64,000 nt of DNA from UHGV virus genome UHGV-0222911. One strand, 5' to 3'. Positions 2,385 to 63,420 of this stretch are shown here, in pieces (the first letter of the stretch is position 1; every line of letters starts with the position of its first letter). Origin of the DNA: a virus. The position numbers were made by a program, and so were the translations under genes. The notes beneath the pieces are model-generated. The model was given only the letters and a program-made list of their open reading frames with translations, was not told the origin of the DNA and did no database searches.

Positions 2385-10388
<8,004 letters not shown>

Positions 10389-17951: not shown

Positions 17952-18335
17952 TCAAATACCTGTGCAGCTTCTGTTTTCTAAGAAATACTCAACACCATAC
18001 ATAGCTTTTTGCATCAAATCTTCTTTAAACTGGATACGGTGGTTGAGCATCGCCTGTACATCAATATCGTCATGGTGTTTCTCTTTAATGTTTGCAGATT
18101 GCAGGAAATACTCTGCAAGAACACGATACTGGTAGTCAGTCACCTTATCAGTCATCTCTGTCAAAGATTCTTCAGATATTGGTTTAAGTAGCTCACCATT
18201 AGCTAGAGCAACACCTTTTACAATCTGGCAAGTGTCTTCTGGAACACCTGATAAGTCCACATTTGGAAGTTCTGTTGCATTGACTGGTAAATTCATTGCC
18301 ATAACCATTGCAGCAGCTAATAAAATCTTTTTCAT
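17952..18335 (-). CDS. secreted/periplasmic protein (signal peptide)
   Basis: 127 aa; N-terminal signal peptide MKKILLAAAMVMAMNLPVNA. Confidence 0.45.
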   Translation of the reverse strand: MKKILLAAAMVMAMNLPVNATELPNVDLSGVPEDTCQIVKGVALANGELLKPISEESLTEMTDKVTDYQYRVLAEYFLQSANIKEKHHDDIDVQAMLNHRIQFKEDLMQKAMYGVEYFLENRSCTGI

Positions 18336-18379
18336 AATGACCTCAAAGTTATATTAAATTTTGTATTACATTGAGTATA

Positions 18380-18408
18380 AAAATAAGCTATAACACCTGA
18401 CTTGTCAA
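18380..18408 (-). promoter_or_regulatory. sigma70-like promoter candidate for gene 17952..18335
   Basis: On minus strand TTGACA - 17 nt - TATTTT, AT-rich upstream. Confidence 0.35.
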
Positions 18409-18463
18409 CAGACTTTATAGCTTATTTGGCAGATTTTTTATAAGGCTACTGCCATCCTTCCAT

Positions 18464-18498
18464 ACCAAACCCGACCTCACCTCACCCCACCTCACCTT
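18464..18498. repeat. phased pentamer array 1: (ACCNN)x7 on plus strand
   Basis: accaa acccg acctc acctc acccc acctc acctt, strict 5-nt phase. Confidence 0.8.
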
Positions 18499-18519
18499 AT
18501 TAAAAGACCCTCTTAAAGA

Positions 18520-18548
18520 CCTTTTAAAAAGGAGCCTCCGAAGAGGCT
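18520..18548 (-). terminator. rho-independent terminator for gene 18560..19000
   Basis: Minus strand AGCCTC UUCG GAGGCU hairpin followed by CCTTTTT. Confidence 0.6.
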
Positions 18549-18559
18549 ACCTCGTCAAC

Positions 18560-19000
18560 TTAGAAAGGTTTTCTGCGTTGCTTGTTAATGTTAGCTTTCA
18601 TAGCAGCTAAATGGTTTTGCTGTTCAATCAGTCGTGAACGTTCTTGATGACTAAGTGCCATAGTGTTCACATTCTCAATTGCTTGAGTGGCTTGCTTTAA
18701 AGCTCGACCAATCTTACCAGACATTTTACGTTTTGCAATAGTTGCTTGATGCTTAGGTTCAACCACACGATAACCAACACCCATTGAAGCAACCAGATAA
18801 ATCTTCTCTTCTTTAAGAAGCTTTTCAATAAACTTCTCAAGTCGGTTTAGACGTGTAAGTGCATAAGCCTTCATTTCATCTTCGTACTTAACAATGTCAC
18901 CTTGATAAGTTGGCTTCACAATACCTAAGAAGGTGTCCATCTCAGAATGTGATACAGTGTCACCGTAACTAAACTTTGCTGCTAATGCTTTTGTATTCAT
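18560..19000 (-). CDS. hypothetical protein
   Basis: 146 aa ORF. Confidence 0.45.
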   Translation of the reverse strand: MNTKALAAKFSYGDTVSHSEMDTFLGIVKPTYQGDIVKYEDEMKAYALTRLNRLEKFIEKLLKEEKIYLVASMGVGYRVVEPKHQATIAKRKMSGKIGRALKQATQAIENVNTMALSHQERSRLIEQQNHLAAMKANINKQRRKPF

Positions 19001-19002
19001 AA

Positions 19003-19608
<606 letters not shown>

Positions 19609-19702
19609 TTAGTTGATTGTTAAGTTGTTTGTAAAGAACCCTCAACAGAAGACTCTTTAGAAACTTGGTAGATTTTTAACGTGGCTACTACCATCCACCC
19701 AT

Positions 19703-19792
19703 ACATTACCGGACTTTACCCCACCATGCCGAACCACACCTGACCAAACAACACCACACCGTACCAAACCTTACCCAACCAGACCTTATCTT
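19703..19792. repeat. phased pentamer array 2: 18 consecutive pentamers, 16 beginning ACC/AC
   Basis: acatt accgg acttt acccc accat gccga accac acctg accaa acaac accac accgt accaa acctt accca accag acctt atctt. Confidence 0.8.
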
Positions 19793-19864
19793 ATTAAAAG
19801 ACCCTCTTAAAGACCTTTTAAAAAGGTAAGTCTCATTTTAATGTAGCTGAGACTAACTACCCGC

Positions 19865-19954
19865 ACTTTACCGCACCGGACCTTACCGGACCGCACATCA
19901 CCGCACTAAACCGGACATCACATTACCCGACCACACCAAACCAAACACCACATT
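19865..19954. repeat. phased pentamer array 3: 18 consecutive pentamers all beginning AC
   Basis: acttt accgc accgg acctt accgg accgc acatc accgc actaa accgg acatc acatt acccg accac accaa accaa acacc acatt. Confidence 0.8.
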
Positions 19955-20019
19955 ACTTAAAAAACCTCTTAGAAGACTCTTAAGTGATGCTGGTGAGTAC
20001 CCGTTGGTTTATGCTGCTC

Positions 20020-20047
20020 AGTATACTCACCAAATTTTCTATGTCAA
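20020..20047 (-). promoter_or_regulatory. near-consensus sigma70 promoter on minus strand, reading into pentamer array 3
   Basis: Minus strand TTGACA - 16 nt - TATACT. Confidence 0.55.
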
Positions 20048-20050
20048 CAA

Positions 20051-20200
20051 CTTTTATAAAAAAGTTCTGATAGCTATATGCGTCACGAAACAAAAGATTG
20101 TAAACAAGACACCCATTGCAAAGGATGTGTTCAAAAGCTTACTTGTGATGTAAGACAACACAAAGATAACTAATGCAAACAGAATGATTGTACTTAACAT
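20051..20200 (-). CDS. small hydrophobic protein (49 aa, two predicted TM segments)
   Basis: ATG 3 nt after ligase stop; MLSTIILFALVIFVLSYITSKLLNTSFAMGVLFTIFCFVTHIAIRTFL; below ORF-track size cutoff, no clear SD. Confidence 0.25.
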
Positions 20201-20203
20201 AGT

Positions 20204-21303
20204 TTATTCATAATCCCTAATAACTAGCCCGACAGGGAACTGTAAAGAACCCTTACGAGTCATCTTCTGGAACTGAACCGTTAAAGGTTTCCCGATAAAC
20301 TCTTCAGGATGCTCAGCAAGATACTGTTTCTTCTCATGAGTAGTTTTCCATGAGACATCTACAAAGACGTTAGGAAGAGTCTCTACAACGAACTTGCCAT
20401 GACCACGCTTATCAGTCTTTACACCAGTCACTTTAAACTCTTCAGTGTGCATCTTCTTGTGCTTAATCAAGAAGTATGAACGGTGACAACACTCATAGAA
20501 GGAGTCTTCAGAGATTGAACGGTACATTGCACCTTCAAACTTAGCTTCAACCCACTTATCATGAGCTTCATCAAACTCTTCCCAAGAATTTACACGACGA
20601 GACTTAACAGGAACAACTTTACAGCCGTCTCTAAAGTCATTCAATGGTGAAGTCTCAATAATATCTCTACGCTCAGGCCACGTCTTAGTGCTGTCACAGA
20701 TATCGTACCAGTAGAACTGGAGTAGATGTCGGTCTGGATTGTCAGCATTCTTAATCATAGACACAATATCTTCTAAGTCCCAACCATGAGCATAAATCTC
20801 ACCATCAAAGTCTTCGACTTGTGGATGCAATTTAAGCAACAAAAGCAAATCTGGGATTAGTTCTTCTGGGACGTTGTAAACAGTATTCTCACGAGAATAA
20901 GCCGTGAAGCTAACTAAATCAGCATCTCTTGAAATTCTACAACGAACACCATCAAGTTTTGGTTGAGCATCAGCAGGGAATATCAAATACTTTGCATGGC
21001 TAACCTTTGCAGCATCATGAGCAAGCTGTACACCCACCTTTTCAGTATTCTGTGCAGACTCTTTTGTGTAAGCATAACCTTTGCGGTCAACTTGCTTCTT
21101 GTACTTAGCAGTAACTTCAAAGAGAGCTTGCTGTTCAGCGTTACGCTCATTCTTTTTACCGATGTTTTTAGGTTCTGCTGTATACTCTTCAAACATCATC
21201 TTGCCATTTTCTTTACCGTAGGTTGTAATAACTTTGTCACCTACAGCAACGCATGACCAGACGTTGAATGAGCCGTCTTTATTTTGTTTGTACAGTATTG
21301 TCA
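20204..21303 (-). CDS. ATP-dependent DNA ligase
   Basis: Adenylation motif I KLDGVR; start set at internal Met (MTILYKQ) preceded by GAGGA SD; longest ORF would start at 21340. Confidence 0.8.
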
Positions 21304-45501: not shown

Positions 45502-47283
45502 ATGACTAAATCACTTTATGCAGTACCAGCAGGTTTAAATGCAGATGCTTACAAATCTGGTCATGTTTACCAGTATCCTAGCGCAACAGAGTACTTGATG
45601 TTCAATCTGACACCACGTAGCGACAAATGGTTTAACAGCCCTTTAGCAATTGACGGTGTAGTGGCTTTTGGTATTCAACGTTTTGTTAAAGATTACTTGA
45701 TAGACCACTGGAATGCCACTTTCTTTGAACGTGATAAAAAAGAAGCCATTGATGAAATCTTAGAAGTCATGAATGGTGTTCTGGGTAAAGATGCTATCGG
45801 TCGAGAGCATTGGGAAGCACTTCACGACTTAGGTTATCTACCAGTTGAAGTATACGCTGTAGAAGAAGGCACAGTTGTTCCAATGCGTGTCCCGATGATT
45901 GTCTTTCATAACACTGTTTCAGGTTTTCATTGGGTAGCAGGTTATCTGGAAGATGCTTTCTCTGCTGAAATTTGGAAGGCTTGCACCATTGCAACTATTG
46001 CATTGCATTACAAACGCATCTGTAAGAAGTGGGCTGACCTTACTTGTGACAATGACTTACATTTACCTTATCAGTGCCATGATTTTGCTATGCGTGGTAT
46101 GTCCGGCTTTACTGATGACGCATTTAACGCTGTAGGTCACTTAACCAGCTTTAAAGGGACTGATAGCTTCCCTGCTGTATACACGGCTAAACGAATCTAT
46201 GGACAGTCCTACCCAATCTCTGATATTGGTAGCTCTGTACCAGCCACTGAGCACTCTGTAATGTGTGCAAACATTGCTTGGGAAGGTGGTAACGAGTTAA
46301 TTGAAGAAGAAAGACGCTTTAAAGGTGAGTTACAAACCTTCCGTCGTTTCTTAACAGAAACTTACCCAACTGGTATTGCAAGTGTTGTTTCAGATACTTA
46401 TAACTTCTGGAGAACTGTATCAGTCATATTACCAGAACTCCGTAAAGAGATTATGGAACGTAATGGCAAACTGGTAATTCGTCCTGATTCTGGAGACCCT
46501 GTACATATTGTCACAGGATACAAAGCAATCCATTTAGAGTGTGCTAAAAAGGCTTATTATGAACACTTAAGCAAGCTGGAAGCCAGTGACACAATGTTGA
46601 ATGCTGTTCTGAACATGAAGCTTGAAAACATCAATTATGGTATTGCTGGATGGCTACTGTCAGAAGGCTACGAAATGGTTGTTGACAGAGAAGACTTTGA
46701 AGTTGCTGATACAGTGCTGTTGAAAAACGCTTATATGGTTGGTTCTGCAAACGTTGTAACACGTCCTGTAGCGGAGATTGATGGAGCTATCAAGACACTG
46801 TATAACATCTTTGGAGGAACTATCAACTCTAAAGGTTTTAAAGTACTGGATGAGCATATCGGGCTTATTTATGGCGACTCTATCACGTTGGAACGTGCAA
46901 ACGAAATACTGAAGCGTTTGTATGAAATGGGTTTTGCAAGCTCTAACGTAGTGTTTGGTGTAGGTTCTTACACTTACCAGTACATGACTCGTGACACCTT
47001 TGCATTTGCTGTCAAAGCAACTCTTGGAAGCATTGGTGGTAAAGAGATTATGCTTGCAAAAGACCCTAAAACAGATAGTGGTGTTAAGAAGTCTGCTTTT
47101 GGTGGTGTAGCACCTATGTGGGATGGTGAAAATCTGAAAGCTGTAGATGGCTATGGGTTCCAGAGCTTTGCAGATGCACTTGAACACCCAGCTTGTGCTT
47201 TACGTCTAGTCTTTAGCGACTCTGAGCAGTTCGGCTACACGACTCTTGGTGATATTCGAAATAATATTGACAAGCAGCTTTAA
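45502..47283 (+). CDS. nicotinamide phosphoribosyltransferase-like enzyme (NadV/NAMPT family)
   Basis: 593 aa; N-terminal NADAYKSGHVYQYP matches NAMPT signature (DSYKVTHYKQYP). Confidence 0.8.
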   Translation: MTKSLYAVPAGLNADAYKSGHVYQYPSATEYLMFNLTPRSDKWFNSPLAIDGVVAFGIQRFVKDYLIDHWNATFFERDKKEAIDEILEVMNGVLGKDAIGREHWEALHDLGYLPVEVYAVEEGTVVPMRVPMIVFHNTVSGFHWVAGYLEDAFSAEIWKACTIATIALHYKRICKKWADLTCDNDLHLPYQCHDFAMRGMSGFTDDAFNAVGHLTSFKGTDSFPAVYTAKRIYGQSYPISDIGSSVPATEHSVMCANIAWEGGNELIEEERRFKGELQTFRRFLTETYPTGIASVVSDTYNFWRTVSVILPELRKEIMERNGKLVIRPDSGDPVHIVTGYKAIHLECAKKAYYEHLSKLEASDTMLNAVLNMKLENINYGIAGWLLSEGYEMVVDREDFEVADTVLLKNAYMVGSANVVTRPVAEIDGAIKTLYNIFGGTINSKGFKVLDEHIGLIYGDSITLERANEILKRLYEMGFASSNVVFGVGSYTYQYMTRDTFAFAVKATLGSIGGKEIMLAKDPKTDSGVKKSAFGGVAPMWDGENLKAVDGYGFQSFADALEHPACALRLVFSDSEQFGYTTLGDIRNNIDKQL

Positions 47284-47297
47284 AAGTATATGATAAG

Positions 47298-47320
47298 AGG
47301 CTCCTACGGGAGCCTTTTTA
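47298..47320 (+). terminator. hairpin + T-run
   Basis: AGGCTCC tacg GGAGCCT followed by TTTTT. Confidence 0.55.
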
Positions 47321-50230: not shown

Positions 50231-50260
50231 TTGACAAGGGGCTTCAAAGCCCCTTAGAAT
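50231..50260 (+). promoter_or_regulatory. sigma70-like promoter with hairpin in the spacer
   Basis: TTGACA - 18 nt (contains GGGGCTT caa AGCCCC) - TAGAAT. Confidence 0.45.
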
Positions 50261-57463: not shown

Positions 57464-57789
57464 TGATGGGTATCACTGCAATCATAGCCATTATGGCACT
57501 TTACAAGGCTTACAGCGCCTATAATCTGGCAAGTAAGGCAATCACGCAACAGGTTAATAATAACCTTGTAATGAGCTTTCTGGAGCGTTTAAGTGATGAA
57601 CAATTGAAACGGTTAGAAATGAGCTTCAGATTTCAATCGAGAACTTATCAAATCAGCGACATTTTCAAAGATGATTTTCAGCTAGTCGATGATTATAATT
57701 CTCTGATAAATGCTTTAAATATCAGTGACTTAAAAGACTATTACTCTGTAATTGTTCAAGAATTGAGCAAACGAAAACAAAACTGTTGA
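57457..57789 (+). CDS. early-region small membrane protein
   Basis: 110 aa; N-terminal TM (MGITAIIAIMALY); ATG overlaps previous stop. Confidence 0.4.
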   Translation: MLMMGITAIIAIMALYKAYSAYNLASKAITQQVNNNLVMSFLERLSDEQLKRLEMSFRFQSRTYQISDIFKDDFQLVDDYNSLINALNISDLKDYYSVIVQELSKRKQNC

Positions 57790-57814
57790 CACTGATTTTT
57801 AGATAGATTAAATT
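57786..57814 (+). promoter_or_regulatory. sigma70-like early promoter (module A2)
   Basis: TTGACA - 17 nt - TAAATT; hairpin 57825-57845; leader to ATG 57880. Confidence 0.6.
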
Positions 57815-57879
57815 ACACATCAACGGGGAGGGAATGAACTTCCCCACTAAATAAAGTCCTTAAACTAGGAGATTCGAAA

Positions 57880-58649: not shown

Positions 58650-58678
58650 TTGACACTGATTTTTAGATAGATTAAATT
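58650..58678 (+). promoter_or_regulatory. sigma70-like early promoter (module A3)
   Basis: Identical to A2: TTGACA - 17 nt - TAAATT; hairpin 58689-58709. Confidence 0.6.
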
Positions 58679-58740
58679 ACTCATCAACGGGGAGGGAATG
58701 AACTTCCCCACTAAGTAAAATCCTAAACTGGAGATTCAAA

Positions 58741-61779: not shown

Positions 61780-63420
61780 ATAGCCCCTATACAAGCCTTT
61801 CCCTTTCCTTTCCAGAATCTATCCCGTACCTTAAAAGCAATAACTCTATAGCTTACTCTATAGCCCCTTATCAAATCAACTTAAATAAAAGCCAATAACC
61901 CCAGAAAGGGGATGGCCTACTAATTGGTATTGTTACCAATCCCCTAAACGCTCTATAAAGCTCTATAACAGCCTTATCAACCTAACTTAAGGGATTGCAT
62001 TAACCCACTCTAAAAAGCCCTTTATAAAGCTTCCTATAGCCTTAAAAGAATCTTATAAGGGTGTAAGCTTTATCATCTCGTTAGTTATCTTGTGAATAAC
62101 TCAATAGCCCTTGATAGTCTCTAAAAAGTATGTTATAGGGGCTGTTAAGTTACTTTGAAGTTACGTAAAAGAGGCTATAAAGTTACGTAAACGCTAGCCC
62201 CCTTAACATTTTCTTAACAATTTCTTAACAATCCCTACATAGTTATGCTTTTAAGGCACTTGTTAGAGACTTGTTAGCCCCTTGTTAAATCTCTGTTAAG
62301 ACCACGTAAAAGCCTTGTAAGAGTCTTTGGCATAGCCTTTAAAGCTCCTATAAAGCCCTATAAAGAGGTGTCTGTATAGTTGGGGTGTAGTTACTAGGAA
62401 GAGACTTAAAAGAGCTTATAAGGGGCTATAGAGAGCTTTTAAGAGGTATGTTTAGAGAGTCACTAAAAGGGAAGGGAACAATAAGAAAAGAGTAGTGACC
62501 ATGTTAATAGCTTGTTAAAAAGATTAAACACTTGTTAGGAACTTGTTAATTATCTAATTGGTATTGTTACCAATCCCTAACAAAATAACTCTTTAAAATT
62601 AACTTGTTAGCTCTTGTTAGTCATCTGTTAAGATTCTGTAAAGTCTATGTATCAACTGTTAAGAAACTGTTACATCCTTGTTAGTTCTGTTAAGAATCTG
62701 TTAAGACCTTTGAAGAGTTGTTAAGAGGATGTAGTAGCTGTTAAGAGATTGTTAAGGATATTTTAAAATTTTGCAAAGTACTTGTAAGGGAGCTGTTAAG
62801 GGCTACCAAGCAGATATACATCTTCTACAGATATTTTTCAGTTCCTTCAAAGACCCTAAAAAATGACTTGACAGTCCTATTTTATAAAAATTTTAAAATT
62901 CTGAATAATTACCTAGACAGTCTTTTAAAAATACAGGCATAAACAGGCTTATAAGATACCTTGTTAGTACCGTGTTAGACCTTGTGAGATAAGGTCTGTA
63001 AAGATATTCCTGTTAAGTTTGTTAAAACAGTCTATATAGAGGCTTAGTATTTCCTAGTGAACACCTATAGAGAGTAACATAGCTAACCTAATGGGTTACT
63101 GTTAAGTAACACAGGTAACCTAGAGATTAAGAGGTGTATAGGAGCTTCTAAGAGGGTGTAGAGAGATGGTTAAGGTGATTGTATAGGTTGTTAAGAAGGC
63201 TTGTTAGAAGAGTGTTTAGAAGGGCTATACAGAGGGGCTATTAAGACCACTAGATAGATACTAAGATACTATATAGTACTATATAACTATATAGAGAGTA
63301 AGATTAAGAAGGTTGTTAAGAAGGATAGATATTTTATTCACATATGATGGTGACCCAGAGGTTGGGACAACCGATAAAATTTTATAAAAATTAAAAAGCC
63401 CCCAATTAAGGAGGCTCTTA
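61780..63420. repeat. ORF-free repeat-dense region (YTGTTAR and CTATAAAG short-repeat families, palindromes)
   Basis: No ORF of 60 aa or more on either strand; about 30 copies of CTGTTAAG/TTGTTAG-like words; CTATAAAG/CTATAG words at 61.84-62.45 kb; palindrome TTGGTATTGTTACCAA at ~61924 and ~62557. Confidence 0.7.
63393..63416 (-). terminator. terminator for minus-strand gene 63428..63985
   Basis: Minus strand AGCCTCC ttaatt GGGGGCT followed by TTTTT. Confidence 0.45.

What the first reader, a model, noticed from the sequence alone, without database searches (positions are those of the whole stretch)
20020..20200. Near-consensus minus-strand promoter and a 49-aa hydrophobic mini-ORF between ligase and array 3
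On the minus strand TTGACA-16-TATACT (plus coordinates 20020-20047) is one of the best sigma70 matches in the window and points into pentamer array 3 rather than directly at a protein gene. Immediately upstream, 3 nt after the ligase stop, is a 49-codon ORF (20051..20200, minus) encoding a two-TM hydrophobic peptide. Small membrane peptides of this kind in phages are often host-takeover, exclusion or holin-like factors.
Basis: seen in the sequence. Interest (0 to 1): 0.45.

Follow-up and report, generated by a model that had tools for sequence, protein, structure and literature searches.

The report
Promoter of a phage VIPR guide-RNA locus
The near-consensus promoter is the conserved start signal of a recently described phage "VIPR" system (guide RNAs made of GGT pentamers plus a Cas7-like protein used against rival phages), and the 48-codon ORF beside it is a real but optional small membrane-protein gene of unknown function.

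Summary
Both observations hold. TTGACA-16-TATACT lies at 20047-20020 (minus strand).

The window is a Felixounavirus. The "pentamer arrays" are vrRNA genes of a type II VIPR locus (bioRxiv 2026). The 195-aa gene after arrays 3 and 2 is about 97% identical to the solved SUSP1 Vipr protein (PDB 36pp). Each array ends in a covariation-supported pseudoknot tail.

The promoter heads the locus in this order: leader, vrRNA (array 3), vrRNA (array 2), vipr, vap, terminator, vrRNA (array 1). The identical promoter sits 98 nt before vrRNA1 in a SUSP1-like contig. It is present in all 34 related loci compared and evolves about 4-fold slower than neutral ligase sites. No transcription start has been mapped, and the VIPR papers do not mention a native promoter.

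The mini-ORF (phrog_22006) is intact in 66 Felixounavirus records, under purifying selection, and has two hydrophobic segments. It occupies a variable slot that in relatives is empty or holds unrelated small ORFs. Its function is unknown, and a holin role is unlikely from context.

The system is already known. The promoter assignment and the orphan arrays in vipr-less relatives are modest additions.

The parts
20054..20200 (-). Mini-ORF, 48 aa plus stop (MLSTIILFALVIFVLSYITSKLLNTSFAMGVLFTIFCFVTHIAIRTFL). A two-segment hydrophobic peptide of family phrog_22006 and an accessory gene in a variable slot.
   Evidence: ORF list. PHROG hit E=2.7e-31. Intact in 66/66 matching phage records. pN/pS is 0.1-0.35, and ~40%-identical alleles of the same length carry a GAGGT Shine-Dalgarno. 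Hydropathy.
20020..20047 (-). Sigma-70-type promoter (here called P_vr): -35 TTGACA 20047-20042, 16-nt spacer, -10 TATACT 20025-20020. Predicted start about 20012-20014.
   Evidence: Conserved in all 34 related loci. The same sequence lies 98 nt upstream of vrRNA1 in the SUSP1-like locus L021. The TSS is inferred, not mapped.
19991..20032 (-). Inverted repeat TGGTGAGTA (20032-20024, overlapping the spacer and the start of the -10) and TACTCACCA (19999-19991, about +14 to +22). The arms have different sequences but stay complementary in variant promoters of relatives.
   Evidence: L019 has TAGTGGGT/ACCCACTA, L020 ACATAGCAAGT/ACTTGCTATGT, L023 CCTGACGGGT/ACCCGTCAGG (read). Function unexplained.
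19951..19989 (-). Conserved leader hairpin (5' flank type A: CATCACTTAAG...TTTAAGTAATG) immediately before the repeats. It is presumably removed or processed to give the mature vrRNA.
   Evidence: RNA fold centroid. Near-invariant in relatives. The same element precedes promoter-less internal arrays in SUSP1/SUSP2-like loci.
19861..19950 (-). vrRNA repeat tract 'array 3': 18 YNNGG units, 12 of them with a perfect GG. The NN dinucleotides are the variable guide code.
   Evidence: The tract is hypervariable between phages with 98%-identical ligase, while the flanks are constant. It fits the vrRNA definition in bioRxiv 10.64898/2026.04.26.720920.
19820..19860 (-). vrRNA 3' tail of array 3. H-type pseudoknot with S1 GTAG/CTAC and S2 AGTCTCA/TGAGACT, followed by TACC-TTTTT. 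It can alternatively form an 11-bp hairpin plus U5, that is, an intrinsic-terminator-like end.
   Evidence: Covariation: 92% of cells paired and 9 of 11 pairs changed on both sides, against 28-37% paired in slid controls. A pseudoknot tail is reported for the SUSP1 clade.
19667..19819 (-). Second vrRNA: 5' flank type B (19819-19789), 18-unit repeat tract 'array 2' (19788-19699), and pseudoknot tail (19698-19667; S1 GTGG/CCAC, S2 GGTAG/CTACC).
19003..19590 (-). vipr gene: 195-aa RAMP/Cas7-like protein that polymerises on vrRNA.
   Evidence: phmmer against PDB 36pp_D 'SUSP1 Vipr protein', E=1.5e-127, ~97% identical. Profile hit. AF2 pLDDT 93.7. Foldseek hits Csm3/Cas7 at probability 1.0. Found next to GGTNN arrays in 37 unrelated viral loci.
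18560..19000 (-). 146-aa gene after vipr. Taken to be vap1, the VIPR accessory protein, by synteny with the SUSP1-like locus.
   Evidence: phrog_5926, no Pfam domain. vap1 is described. The assignment is inferred from position.
18526..18548 (-). Intrinsic terminator after vap (AGCCTCTTCGGAGGCT CCTTTTT).
18428..18525 (-). Third vrRNA: 5' flank type B (18525-18500), 8-unit repeat tract 'array 1' (18499-18460), and pseudoknot tail (18459-18428; S1 AAGG/CCTT, S2 GGCAG/CTGCC). No promoter of its own was detected.
18380..18408 (-). Next promoter (TTGACA-17-TATTTT, with TATACT just downstream) for the following lipoprotein-like gene. It marks the right-hand boundary of the VIPR cassette.
   Evidence: In vipr-less relatives the ligase is followed directly by a promoter of this kind.

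Best explanation
The window is a Felixounavirus, and the region between the DNA ligase gene and the next lipoprotein-like gene is a type II VIPR (Viral Interference Programmable Repeat) cassette.

Promoter. The TTGACA-16-TATACT site is most likely the host-RNA-polymerase (sigma-70) promoter that heads this cassette. Transcription would start near 20013 and run through these elements in order:
- a ~62-nt conserved leader;
- vrRNA 'array 3', whose pseudoknot tail plus U5 may terminate part of the transcripts;
- vrRNA 'array 2';
- vipr;
- vap;
- by read-through of the vap terminator, vrRNA 'array 1'.

Vipr protomers then coat each YNNGG repeat tract. The NN dinucleotides read a gapped (xNN) DNA target in a competing satellite or phage and repress it. 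This mechanism is taken from the SUSP1 papers, not from tests here.

Mature vrRNAs are ~100 nt in SUSP1, but the promoter lies ~62 nt before the first repeat. The leader must therefore be trimmed or processed (inferred).

Mini-ORF. It is a genuine, translationally coupled, accessory gene for a 48-aa two-helix membrane peptide. It sits in a hyperplastic slot between the ligase stop and the promoter, is not a core VIPR part, and has unknown function.

Shown here: sequence features, conservation, Vipr identity, the pseudoknot, locus order, and purifying selection on the ORF. Inferred: promoter use, the operon read-through, leader processing, and membrane insertion of the peptide.
For: System identity.
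- The window protein 19006-19590(-) matches PDB 36pp 'SUSP1 Vipr protein' at E=1.5e-127, ~97% identity.
- The fold is RAMP/Csm3-like.
- The arrays are YNNGG repeats with hypervariable NN and constant flanks.
- The 3' tails form a pseudoknot with 9 of 11 covarying pairs.
- All of this matches the published definition.
- Independent link: 37 of ~120 viral loci fetched only by a GGTNN DNA pattern carry a Vipr homolog within 2 kb.

Promoter.
- 11/12 match to consensus.
- Present in all 34 related loci whatever precedes it.
- Diversity 0.045 against 0.20 at neutral ligase sites.
- In the SUSP1-like locus L021 it lies 98 nt before the 12-unit vrRNA1. It is the only strong sense-strand promoter-like site in the locus, and none precedes the three downstream vrRNAs.
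- SUSP1 sRNA-seq shows all four vrRNAs expressed during infection.

Mini-ORF.
- phrog_22006.
- Intact in 66/66 records.
- pN/pS 0.1-0.35 with conservative substitutions.
- Divergent 49-aa alleles keep the hydropathy pattern and have a GAGGT ribosome-binding site.
- The slot is alternatively empty or holds an unrelated basic ~60-aa ORF or a 20-aa ORF.
Against: Promoter.
- No transcription start site is mapped. The published sRNA-seq used CIP/PNK end repair and cannot tell primary from processed 5' ends.
- The VIPR papers do not mention a native promoter.
- Consensus matches of this quality occur ~2 times by chance in 64 kb.
- The strong conservation covers the whole 100-nt leader, so part of it could reflect RNA processing signals rather than promoter function.
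- The covarying inverted repeat has one arm upstream of the predicted start. It can therefore only form in read-through RNA or in DNA, which hints at transcription entering from the ligase operon.

Array 3.
- 6 of its 18 units are degenerate (TG or AG instead of GG).
- No natural target was found for any of the three vrRNAs.

Mini-ORF.
- The window allele has only a weak, distant AGGGA upstream, so translation depends on coupling.
- There are no proteomic or ribosome data.
Confidence: 0.75

Rival explanations
1. The hexamers are not the working promoter. vrRNAs and vipr mRNA are cut out of long read-through transcripts that start far upstream (the ligase/DNA polymerase early operon). The conserved block around 20047-19951 is then an RNA processing site: the covarying hairpin TGGTGAGTA/TACTCACCA and the leader hairpin would be RNase III/E-type substrates.
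For: The left arm of the covarying inverted repeat lies upstream of the predicted start, so the stem can only exist in read-through RNA or DNA. The leader is conserved over its whole length, not only at the hexamers. The mature vrRNA (~100 nt) needs 5' processing in any case. There is no terminator between the ligase or mini-ORF and the promoter.
Against: Both hexamers are kept at 11/12 with fixed 16-nt spacing in nearly all relatives. This includes variant promoters whose spacer and downstream sequence differ completely while TTGACA and TATACT stay. That pattern is what selection on a promoter predicts, not selection on a hairpin. Other intergenic promoters of this genome share the same TGTTGACA context. 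The two models are not exclusive.
Confidence: 0.12
2. The promoter plus G-rich arrays form a transcription-primed (R-loop or G-quadruplex) replication origin or recombination hotspot, by analogy with T4 oriF/oriG, ColE1 RNA II or immunoglobulin switch repeats. They would not be a guide-RNA locus.
For: A strong promoter reads into ~100-nt tracts that are G-rich on the non-template strand, inside the replication gene block. Arrays look recombinogenic: relatives have lost vipr-vap by array-to-array deletion.
Against: The arrays are genetically linked to a RAMP protein in dozens of unrelated phages. That protein is ~97% identical to one solved in complex with such RNA. The 3' tails show RNA pseudoknot covariation. 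Strict 5-nt phasing with a conserved GGY and free NN is explained by one Vipr protomer per unit and not by R-loop propensity.
Confidence: 0.02
3. The mini-ORF is a lysis or killing factor (holin, antiholin or Hok/TisB-like membrane toxin).
For: Small size, two hydrophobic segments and GRAVY 1.8. Such peptides are common among holins and type I toxins (general knowledge).
Against: It is coupled to the ligase gene in the replication block and has no endolysin or spanin neighbour. It lacks the charged C-terminal tail typical of holins. It is absent from about three quarters of otherwise near-identical phages, including Felix O1, so it cannot be the genus's lysis timer. Pfam, NCBIfam and PADLOC give no match. 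Superinfection exclusion or another competition role is not excluded.
Confidence: 0.05
4. The mini-ORF is not translated. It is a spacer that happens to be open.
For: The window allele has a weak Shine-Dalgarno. About half of the GenBank records leave it unannotated.
Against: It is open in 66/66 records, and pN/pS is 0.1-0.35 with pS up to 0.4. Alleles at ~40% identity keep the length, the SKLL turn and the hydropathy, and carry GAGGT 5-6 nt before the ATG.
Confidence: 0.06

Closest known systems
Type II VIPR system of Escherichia phage SUSP1 (bioRxiv 10.64898/2026.04.26.720920 and 10.64898/2026.04.26.720927; PDB 36pp)
   Same: The Vipr protein is ~97% identical. The 146-aa downstream gene, the YNNGG repeat tracts, the 5' flanks, the pseudoknot tails and the promoter/leader are the same.
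   Different: The number and placement of vrRNAs differ. The window has two upstream and one downstream; SUSP1 has one upstream and three downstream. The NN codes are entirely different. Between ligase and promoter the window has the 48-aa hydrophobic ORF where the SUSP1-like contig has a basic ~60-aa ORF. The papers do not describe the native promoter.
CRISPR leader promoter plus pre-crRNA
   Same: A single upstream promoter transcribes a multi-guide precursor, which is cut into unit guides bound by RAMP (Cas7-like) proteins. The Vipr model matches Csm3/Cas7.
   Different: There are no spacer-repeat units, no Cas6 and no adaptation genes. Each guide is a tract of 5-nt units with its own pseudoknot tail. 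The protein genes sit between guides. The locus is phage-borne.
PeSL (promoter-early stem-loop) cassettes of T4-like phages (PMC2839356, PMC4122927)
   Same: A conserved strong sigma-70 promoter associated with a stem-loop borders variable small ORFs and whole gene cassettes. The VIPR cassette lies between two similar AAAGTNNGTTGACA promoters. The mini-ORF slot abuts one of them.
   Different: The stem here spans the -10 to about +22 and is not followed by a U-run. No mini-circles or recombination were tested. The phage family is different.
Type III toxin-antitoxin loci (ToxIN-like): promoter, RNA repeats, terminator, protein gene
   Same: The order of elements is the same: a promoter reads through tandem RNA repeats and a leaky terminator into the protein that binds them.
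   Different: The repeats are 5 nt, not ~36 nt. The protein is a RAMP, not a ToxN/Kid-like nuclease. There is no PADLOC or Pfam toxin hit.

Membership tests
VIPR system (type II, SUSP1 clade) | Vipr protein: a minimal RAMP (RRM core, G-loop, thumb) | tested here: met
   E=1.5e-127 and ~97% identity to PDB 36pp_D 'SUSP1 Vipr protein'. The conserved C-terminal [12 protein letters not shown] glycine-rich loop is seen in 35 homologs. AF2 pLDDT 93.7. Foldseek hits Csm3/Cas7 at probability 1.0.
VIPR system (type II, SUSP1 clade) | vrRNA genes: 9-16 tandem YNNGG units with conserved GGY and hypervariable NN | tested here: met
   Three tracts of 18, 18 and 8 units. NN is completely different between phages with 98%-identical ligase, while the flanks are constant. 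Unit counts fall slightly outside the quoted 9-16 range.
VIPR system (type II, SUSP1 clade) | Invariable 3' tail forming a pseudoknot | tested here: met
   On 18 distinct tails, 92% of cells are paired and 9 of 11 pairs changed on both sides; slid controls give 28-37%.
VIPR system (type II, SUSP1 clade) | Adjacent vap accessory gene | tested here: met
   A 146-aa ORF lies directly after vipr, the same gene as in the SUSP1-like contig L021. That it is vap1 is inferred from the paper's locus description.
VIPR system (type II, SUSP1 clade) | vrRNAs are expressed and bound by Vipr | not testable with these tools
   Reported for SUSP1 by sRNA-seq and pull-down. There are no expression data for this phage.
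VIPR system (type II, SUSP1 clade) | NN code matches a DNA target under the 1-nt skip (xNN) rule | tested here: inconclusive
   Ten- and eleven-unit patterns of arrays 3 and 2 gave no hit in IMG/VR. Hits in GTDB genomes and JGI metagenomes were at chance level, with flanking units at 3-7 of 16. Nothing exceeded shuffled controls in the loci held. E. coli/Salmonella pangenomes cannot be pattern-searched here.
Sigma-70 promoter | -35 and -10 hexamers with 16-18 nt spacing | tested here: met
   TTGACA-16-TATACT, 11/12.
Sigma-70 promoter | Transcription initiates 6-8 nt downstream of the -10 | not testable with these tools
   No TSS data exist. The published sRNA-seq is end-repaired.
PeSL-like promoter/stem-loop shuffling cassette | Strong early promoter joined to a stem-loop, repeated in the genome, at the borders of variable ORFs | tested here: inconclusive
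   The promoter plus covarying inverted repeat borders the variable mini-ORF slot and the VIPR cassette. Other promoters of the window also carry hairpins. However, the stem is not a terminator, and recombination was not tested.
Holin | Small membrane protein encoded with endolysin or spanin genes, having a charged C-terminal tail and required for lysis | tested here: not met
   The neighbours are the ligase and VIPR. The C-terminus is RTFL. The ORF is found in only 66 of the ~260 related phage records.

The most novel reading that the evidence does not exclude
The promoter/leader block is more than a constitutive promoter.

Its covarying inverted repeat spans the -10 and the early transcript. 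This would let the phage distinguish read-through transcripts from promoter-initiated ones, giving a timing or processing switch for guide production.

The same promoter is retained in the roughly half of Felixounaviruses that lack vipr and vap, Felix O1 itself included. There it would express orphan vrRNAs that either borrow or titrate the Vipr protein of a co-infecting relative. That would be guide-RNA parasitism or an anti-VIPR decoy.

The adjacent variable mini-ORF slot would belong to the same inter-phage conflict island.
Probability: 0.12. Interest if true: 0.65.

Novelty: new member of a known kind. Interest (0 to 1): 0.4.

Why it matters
VIPR was described only in 2026 preprints, and the experiments there used inducible plasmid promoters. 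Identifying the native promoter bears on how and when a lytic phage deploys its guide RNAs, for four reasons.
- The promoter is invariant across the genus.
- It sits ~62 nt before the first repeat, which implies leader processing.
- It is apparently the only strong promoter for four to five RNA and protein products.
- It gives a simple genetic handle: -10 mutants.

Many relatives keep the promoter and an orphan array after losing vipr. This raises a testable question about guide-only elements.

The mini-ORF adds one more conserved, unannotated small membrane protein to the accessory repertoire of therapeutic Felix O1-like phages. Nothing here points to an unusual role for it.

Tried and rejected
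1. Before the protein link was found, several readings of the GGTNN arrays were considered: an R-loop/G4 replication origin, Chi- or RecA-preferred GT-rich hotspots, BoxA/Nus antitermination boxes, a TRAP-like RNA sponge, primase site clusters, centromere iterons (the KhF3 record annotates 'possible binding site of StbAB'), and a type III TA antitoxin. All were dropped once a Vipr homolog was found next to arrays in 37 unrelated loci and matched PDB 36pp.

2. Rfam found nothing at gathering score in the whole window. At E<=10 in 18300-20250 there were only chance hits.

3. The Felix O1 and UAB_Phi87 genome papers describe neither this promoter nor the arrays. A search for a Felixounavirus transcriptome was uninformative, as was a search on pentanucleotide repeats.

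4. Pfam, NCBIfam and PADLOC gave no hit for the mini-ORF or for Vipr, and only sub-threshold chance hits for Vap.

5. A wide protein search for the mini-ORF found only three clusters, all from Felixounavirus.

6. Natural targets of arrays 3 and 2 were sought under the xNN rule. There were none in IMG/VR, only chance hits in GTDB genomes and JGI metagenomes, and nothing above shuffled controls in the sequences held.

7. The vrRNA tail plus flank was used to look for vrRNA-bearing satellites in complete E. coli genomes. There was no match.

8. Folding the whole predicted primary transcript gave z = -1.0, not more stable than shuffles. Only the leader hairpin and the tail are structured, and the repeat tract is open.
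Full report
**1. What is at the coordinates**

Read on the minus strand, the ligase gene ends with TAA at 20206-20204. Three bases later (ACT), an ATG at 20200 opens a 48-codon ORF that stops with TAA at 20056-20054.

Six bases after that stop comes TTGACA (20047-20042). A 16-nt spacer follows, then TATACT (20025-20020). This is the best promoter-like site in 14-26 kb, at 11/12. It is one of eight 11/12 sites in the window when spacers of 15-19 are allowed.

The consensus match alone is weak evidence. Six sites of >=11/12 are seen, against 2.4 +/- 1.5 in Markov-1 simulations. In 14-26 kb, promoter-like sites are no more frequent than in shuffles.

**2. Which genome this is**

Megablast places the window in Felixounavirus (Felix O1/wV8-like): 260 phage records match at 80-99% identity. 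Genes here run on the minus strand within the replication gene block, between the DNA polymerase and ligase upstream and an HTH regulator downstream.

**3. Conservation of the promoter and variability of what precedes it**

I compared 29 IMG/VR loci fetched with the ligase, four GenBank loci and Felix O1a.

The block AAGTTGTTGACATAGAAAATTTGGTGAGTATACTGAGCAGCATAAACCAACGGGTACTCACCAGCATCACTTAAGAG... is present in every one of them. One locus has TTGACC, and two (Felix O1a among them) have TATGCT.

Nucleotide diversity over promoter plus leader is 0.045. At 4-fold degenerate sites in the last 600 nt of the ligase it is 0.20.

What lies between the ligase stop and the promoter varies:
- nothing, with the promoter starting right after TAA;
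- the 48-aa hydrophobic ORF;
- an unrelated basic ~60-aa ORF that starts at a GTG overlapping the TAG stop (as in the SUSP1-like contig);
- a 20-aa hydrophobic ORF.

**4. The mini-ORF is a real gene**

- It belongs to phrog_22006, function unknown.
- tblastn finds it intact over >=80% of its length in 66 of 66 matching phage records, all Felixounavirus-like. Many records leave it unannotated.
- The 5.8-billion-protein search adds nothing outside this genus.
- Pairwise pN/pS is 0.1-0.35 with pS up to 0.4, and substitutions are conservative.
- Two loci carry alleles only ~40% identical. These keep the length (49 aa), the S-K-L-L turn and the hydropathy profile, and have GAGGT 5-6 nt before the ATG.
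- The window allele has only a distant AGGGA, so its translation probably depends on coupling to the ligase stop 3 nt away (inference).
- Hydropathy gives two hydrophobic segments, ~2-20 and ~27-44, and GRAVY 1.8.
- Pfam, NCBIfam and PADLOC give no hit.
- One locus (L023) has the ORF but no arrays or vipr. Many loci have vipr without the ORF. It is therefore not a core part of the downstream system.

**5. What the promoter points at**

Downstream lie three tracts of 5-nt units (minus strand): 19950-19861, 19788-19699 and 18499-18460.

Between phages whose ligases are 98% identical, the flanks of these tracts are essentially invariant. The tracts themselves differ completely in the two N positions and in unit number, while GGT is kept.

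It showed similar degenerate arrays, often several in tandem with conserved spacers, in contigs of 29-62% GC.

I clustered all ORFs within 2 kb of those arrays. One ~190-aa family was present in 37 loci, and it includes the window ORF 19003-19590.

That family has more than 500 members in the large protein database, all unnamed and without a Pfam domain. It has a conserved glycine-rich C-terminal motif.

A profile of the family, and the window protein alone, match one PDB entry: 36pp, 'SUSP1 Vipr protein' (E=8e-81 and 1.5e-127; ~97% identity). An AlphaFold model (pLDDT 93.7) matches Csm3/Cas7 RAMP subunits at probability 1.0.

**6. The known system**

Two 2026 bioRxiv preprints describe VIPR, Viral Interference Programmable Repeat:
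- A phage-encoded minimal RAMP (Vipr) polymerises on ~100-nt vrRNAs.
- vrRNAs consist of 9-16 YNNGG units plus an invariant 3' tail, a pseudoknot in the SUSP1 clade.
- The NN dinucleotides pair with dsDNA targets under a 1-nt-skip (xNN) rule and repress transcription.
- Natural targets of the SUSP1 clade are mostly a satellite phage.
- Type II loci carry vipr plus vap1.
- SUSP1 has one vrRNA upstream and three downstream of the genes.

Contig L021 (90,743 bp) has exactly that layout: a 12-unit upstream array (cryo-EM resolved 12 protomers on vrRNA1), a 195-aa vipr, a 146-aa second gene, and then three arrays.

The window has the same parts, with two arrays upstream and one downstream.

Before reading the papers, I had noticed that the three tails can form an H-type pseudoknot with compensatory changes between copies. 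On 18 distinct tails, 92% of cells pair and 9 of 11 pairs change on both sides. Controls with the partner slid by 1-3 columns give 28-37%.

**7. Role of the promoter**

In L021 the identical promoter lies 98 nt before the first unit of vrRNA1.

A scan of that whole locus finds, on the sense strand, only three sites:
- this promoter (11/12);
- a weak 9/12 site before vipr;
- the promoter of the next gene.

No promoter-like site precedes the three downstream vrRNAs, which follow the vap terminator. Yet all four SUSP1 vrRNAs are expressed during infection.

The simplest reading is that this promoter drives the whole cassette, with partial termination and read-through. In the window the tail of array 3 can also fold as an 11-bp hairpin followed by U5. 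That would give a discrete array 3 RNA and some read-through into array 2 and vipr.

The predicted start (~20013) lies ~62 nt before the first variable unit, whereas mature vrRNAs are ~100 nt (12 x 5 + ~40). The leader must therefore be removed (inference). It contains a conserved hairpin (19989-19951), and the same element precedes promoter-less internal arrays in SUSP1/SUSP2-like loci. This fits a processing or handle element rather than a promoter element.

Neither preprint mentions a native promoter or terminator. Their sRNA-seq end-repairs RNA, so it cannot identify primary ends. Promoter use is thus well supported by comparative evidence but not demonstrated.

**8. An unexplained detail**

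TGGTGAGTA (20032-20024) overlaps the spacer and the first bases of the -10. It is complementary to TACTCACCA (19999-19991).

Three relatives have a different version of this promoter that drives the lipoprotein-like gene directly, with no VIPR cassette. In these the arm sequences differ but stay complementary at the same position: TAGTGGGT/ACCCACTA, ACATAGCAAGT/ACTTGCTATGT and CCTGACGGGT/ACCCGTCAGG.

One arm is upstream of the start, so the stem can form only in read-through RNA or in DNA. This is the main support for the rival view that transcripts from the ligase operon are processed here. The two views are compatible.

**9. Cassette boundaries**

In vipr-less relatives the ligase stop is followed directly by a promoter of the AAAGTTGTTGACA type that drives the lipoprotein-like gene. 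In the window the VIPR cassette lies between two such promoters, at 20047 and 18408.

Some relatives, Felix O1a included, keep the first promoter plus a single array whose 5' flank is that of array 3 and whose tail is that of array 1, with vipr and vap gone. This is what array-to-array deletion would produce.

tblastn finds Vipr in 130 phage records, 118 of them Felixounavirus-like at >=90% identity. The promoter region is present in 259 records. The wV8 annotators found no Felix O1 homolog for gp94 or gp95. So about half the genus keeps a promoter-driven orphan array.

The arrangement resembles PeSL promoter/stem-loop cassettes of T4-like phages. No recombination test was done.

**10. Targets**

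I converted arrays 3 and 2 to xNN patterns.
- There were no exact 10-11-unit matches in IMG/VR.
- The few matches in GTDB genomes and JGI metagenomes are high-GC actinobacterial or Bacillota sequences. Their flanking units match at chance level.
- No site in the window or the fetched loci exceeds shuffled-unit controls.
- The conserved tail plus flank is not found in complete E. coli genomes.

The targets therefore remain unknown. Six of the 18 units of array 3 have TG or AG in place of GG. Similar units occur in a SUSP1 array whose paper counterpart, native guide 3, is reported active in a GFP assay (equating the two is my inference).

**11. Verdict**

The proposed functions for the peptide are untested, and a holin role is unlikely.

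The element as a whole is a close relative of a system already published in 2026. New here are:
- the assignment of the native promoter and leader;
- the inverted-repeat covariation;
- the variable ORF slot;
- the orphan arrays in vipr-less relatives.

These are of moderate interest to people working on VIPR and of low general surprise.

Noticed in passing
L161 (Salmonella phage FO1a) 1558-1840; L010, L027, L032, L005: Felix O1a and several relatives keep the promoter and one or two vrRNA-like arrays with pseudoknot tails, but have no vipr or vap gene between the ligase and the next gene. Vipr is found in 130 phage records, while the promoter region is found in 259. These are orphan guide arrays whose use is unknown.
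   Followed up: partly
IMG/VR loci L034-L153 (e.g. L043 3395-3841, L053 2301-3404, L090, L124, L138): Degenerate (NNGGT)n arrays are widespread in unrelated viral contigs of 29-62% GC. They are often 3-11 tracts in tandem, separated by short conserved spacers or hairpins, and 37 of ~120 such loci carry a Vipr homolog within 2 kb. A few hits are plain microsatellites: (GGTCA)n in L078 and (GGGTT)n in L139.
   Followed up: partly
window 20024-20032 and 19991-19999; L019, L020, L023 at the equivalent promoter: A 8-11 bp inverted repeat brackets the -10 hexamer and the first ~20 nt of the transcript. Its sequence differs between promoter variants but complementarity is kept. One arm is not transcribed from this promoter, so its role (processing of read-through RNA, or a DNA structure) is unexplained.
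   Followed up: partly
L008, L009, L014, L017, L021, L030 at ~4101-4285 (between ligase stop and promoter): In SUSP1/SUSP2-like phages the same slot holds a different small ORF. It starts at a GTG overlapping the ligase TAG and encodes a basic, Cys-containing ~60-aa peptide (VKREIIKFTNPGSCCPVHDKYPSNTYKNRRS...). L019 instead has a 20-aa hydrophobic ORF.
   Followed up: no
window 18380-18430: The next promoter (TTGACA at 18408) is embedded in a 13-bp perfect inverted repeat, AAATAAGCTATAA...TTATAGCTTATTT, followed by a T-run. This is a terminator-like stem that overlaps a promoter, reminiscent of PeSL cassettes.
   Followed up: no
window 57786-57850 and 58650-58715 (+); 50231-50260 (+); 47267-47320 (+): Several other strong promoter-like sites carry GC-rich hairpins inside or just after them. 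There are two near-identical copies of TTGACACTGATTTTTAGATAGATTAAATTAC...GGGGAGGGAATGAACTTCCCC. They correspond to the 39-bp direct repeats reported for Felix O1 between genes 18-21.
   Followed up: no
window 62200-62760 (+): Tandem Repeats Finder reports a cluster of 10-11-bp tandem repeats (units such as CTTAACAATTT and TCTGTTAAGAT, up to ~8 copies). It was not examined and could be an iteron-like region.
   Followed up: no
GenBank records KT184315 (KhF3), NC_012749 (wV8), MN850635 (bumzen): Existing annotations label parts of the vrRNA arrays as 'DR_4', 'repeat_region' or 'possible binding site of StbAB', and leave the mini-ORF unannotated. vipr and vap are 'hypothetical protein' throughout. 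GU169904, named 'Staphylococcus phage SA1', contains this Felixounavirus locus, which suggests a mislabelled or chimeric record.
   Followed up: no
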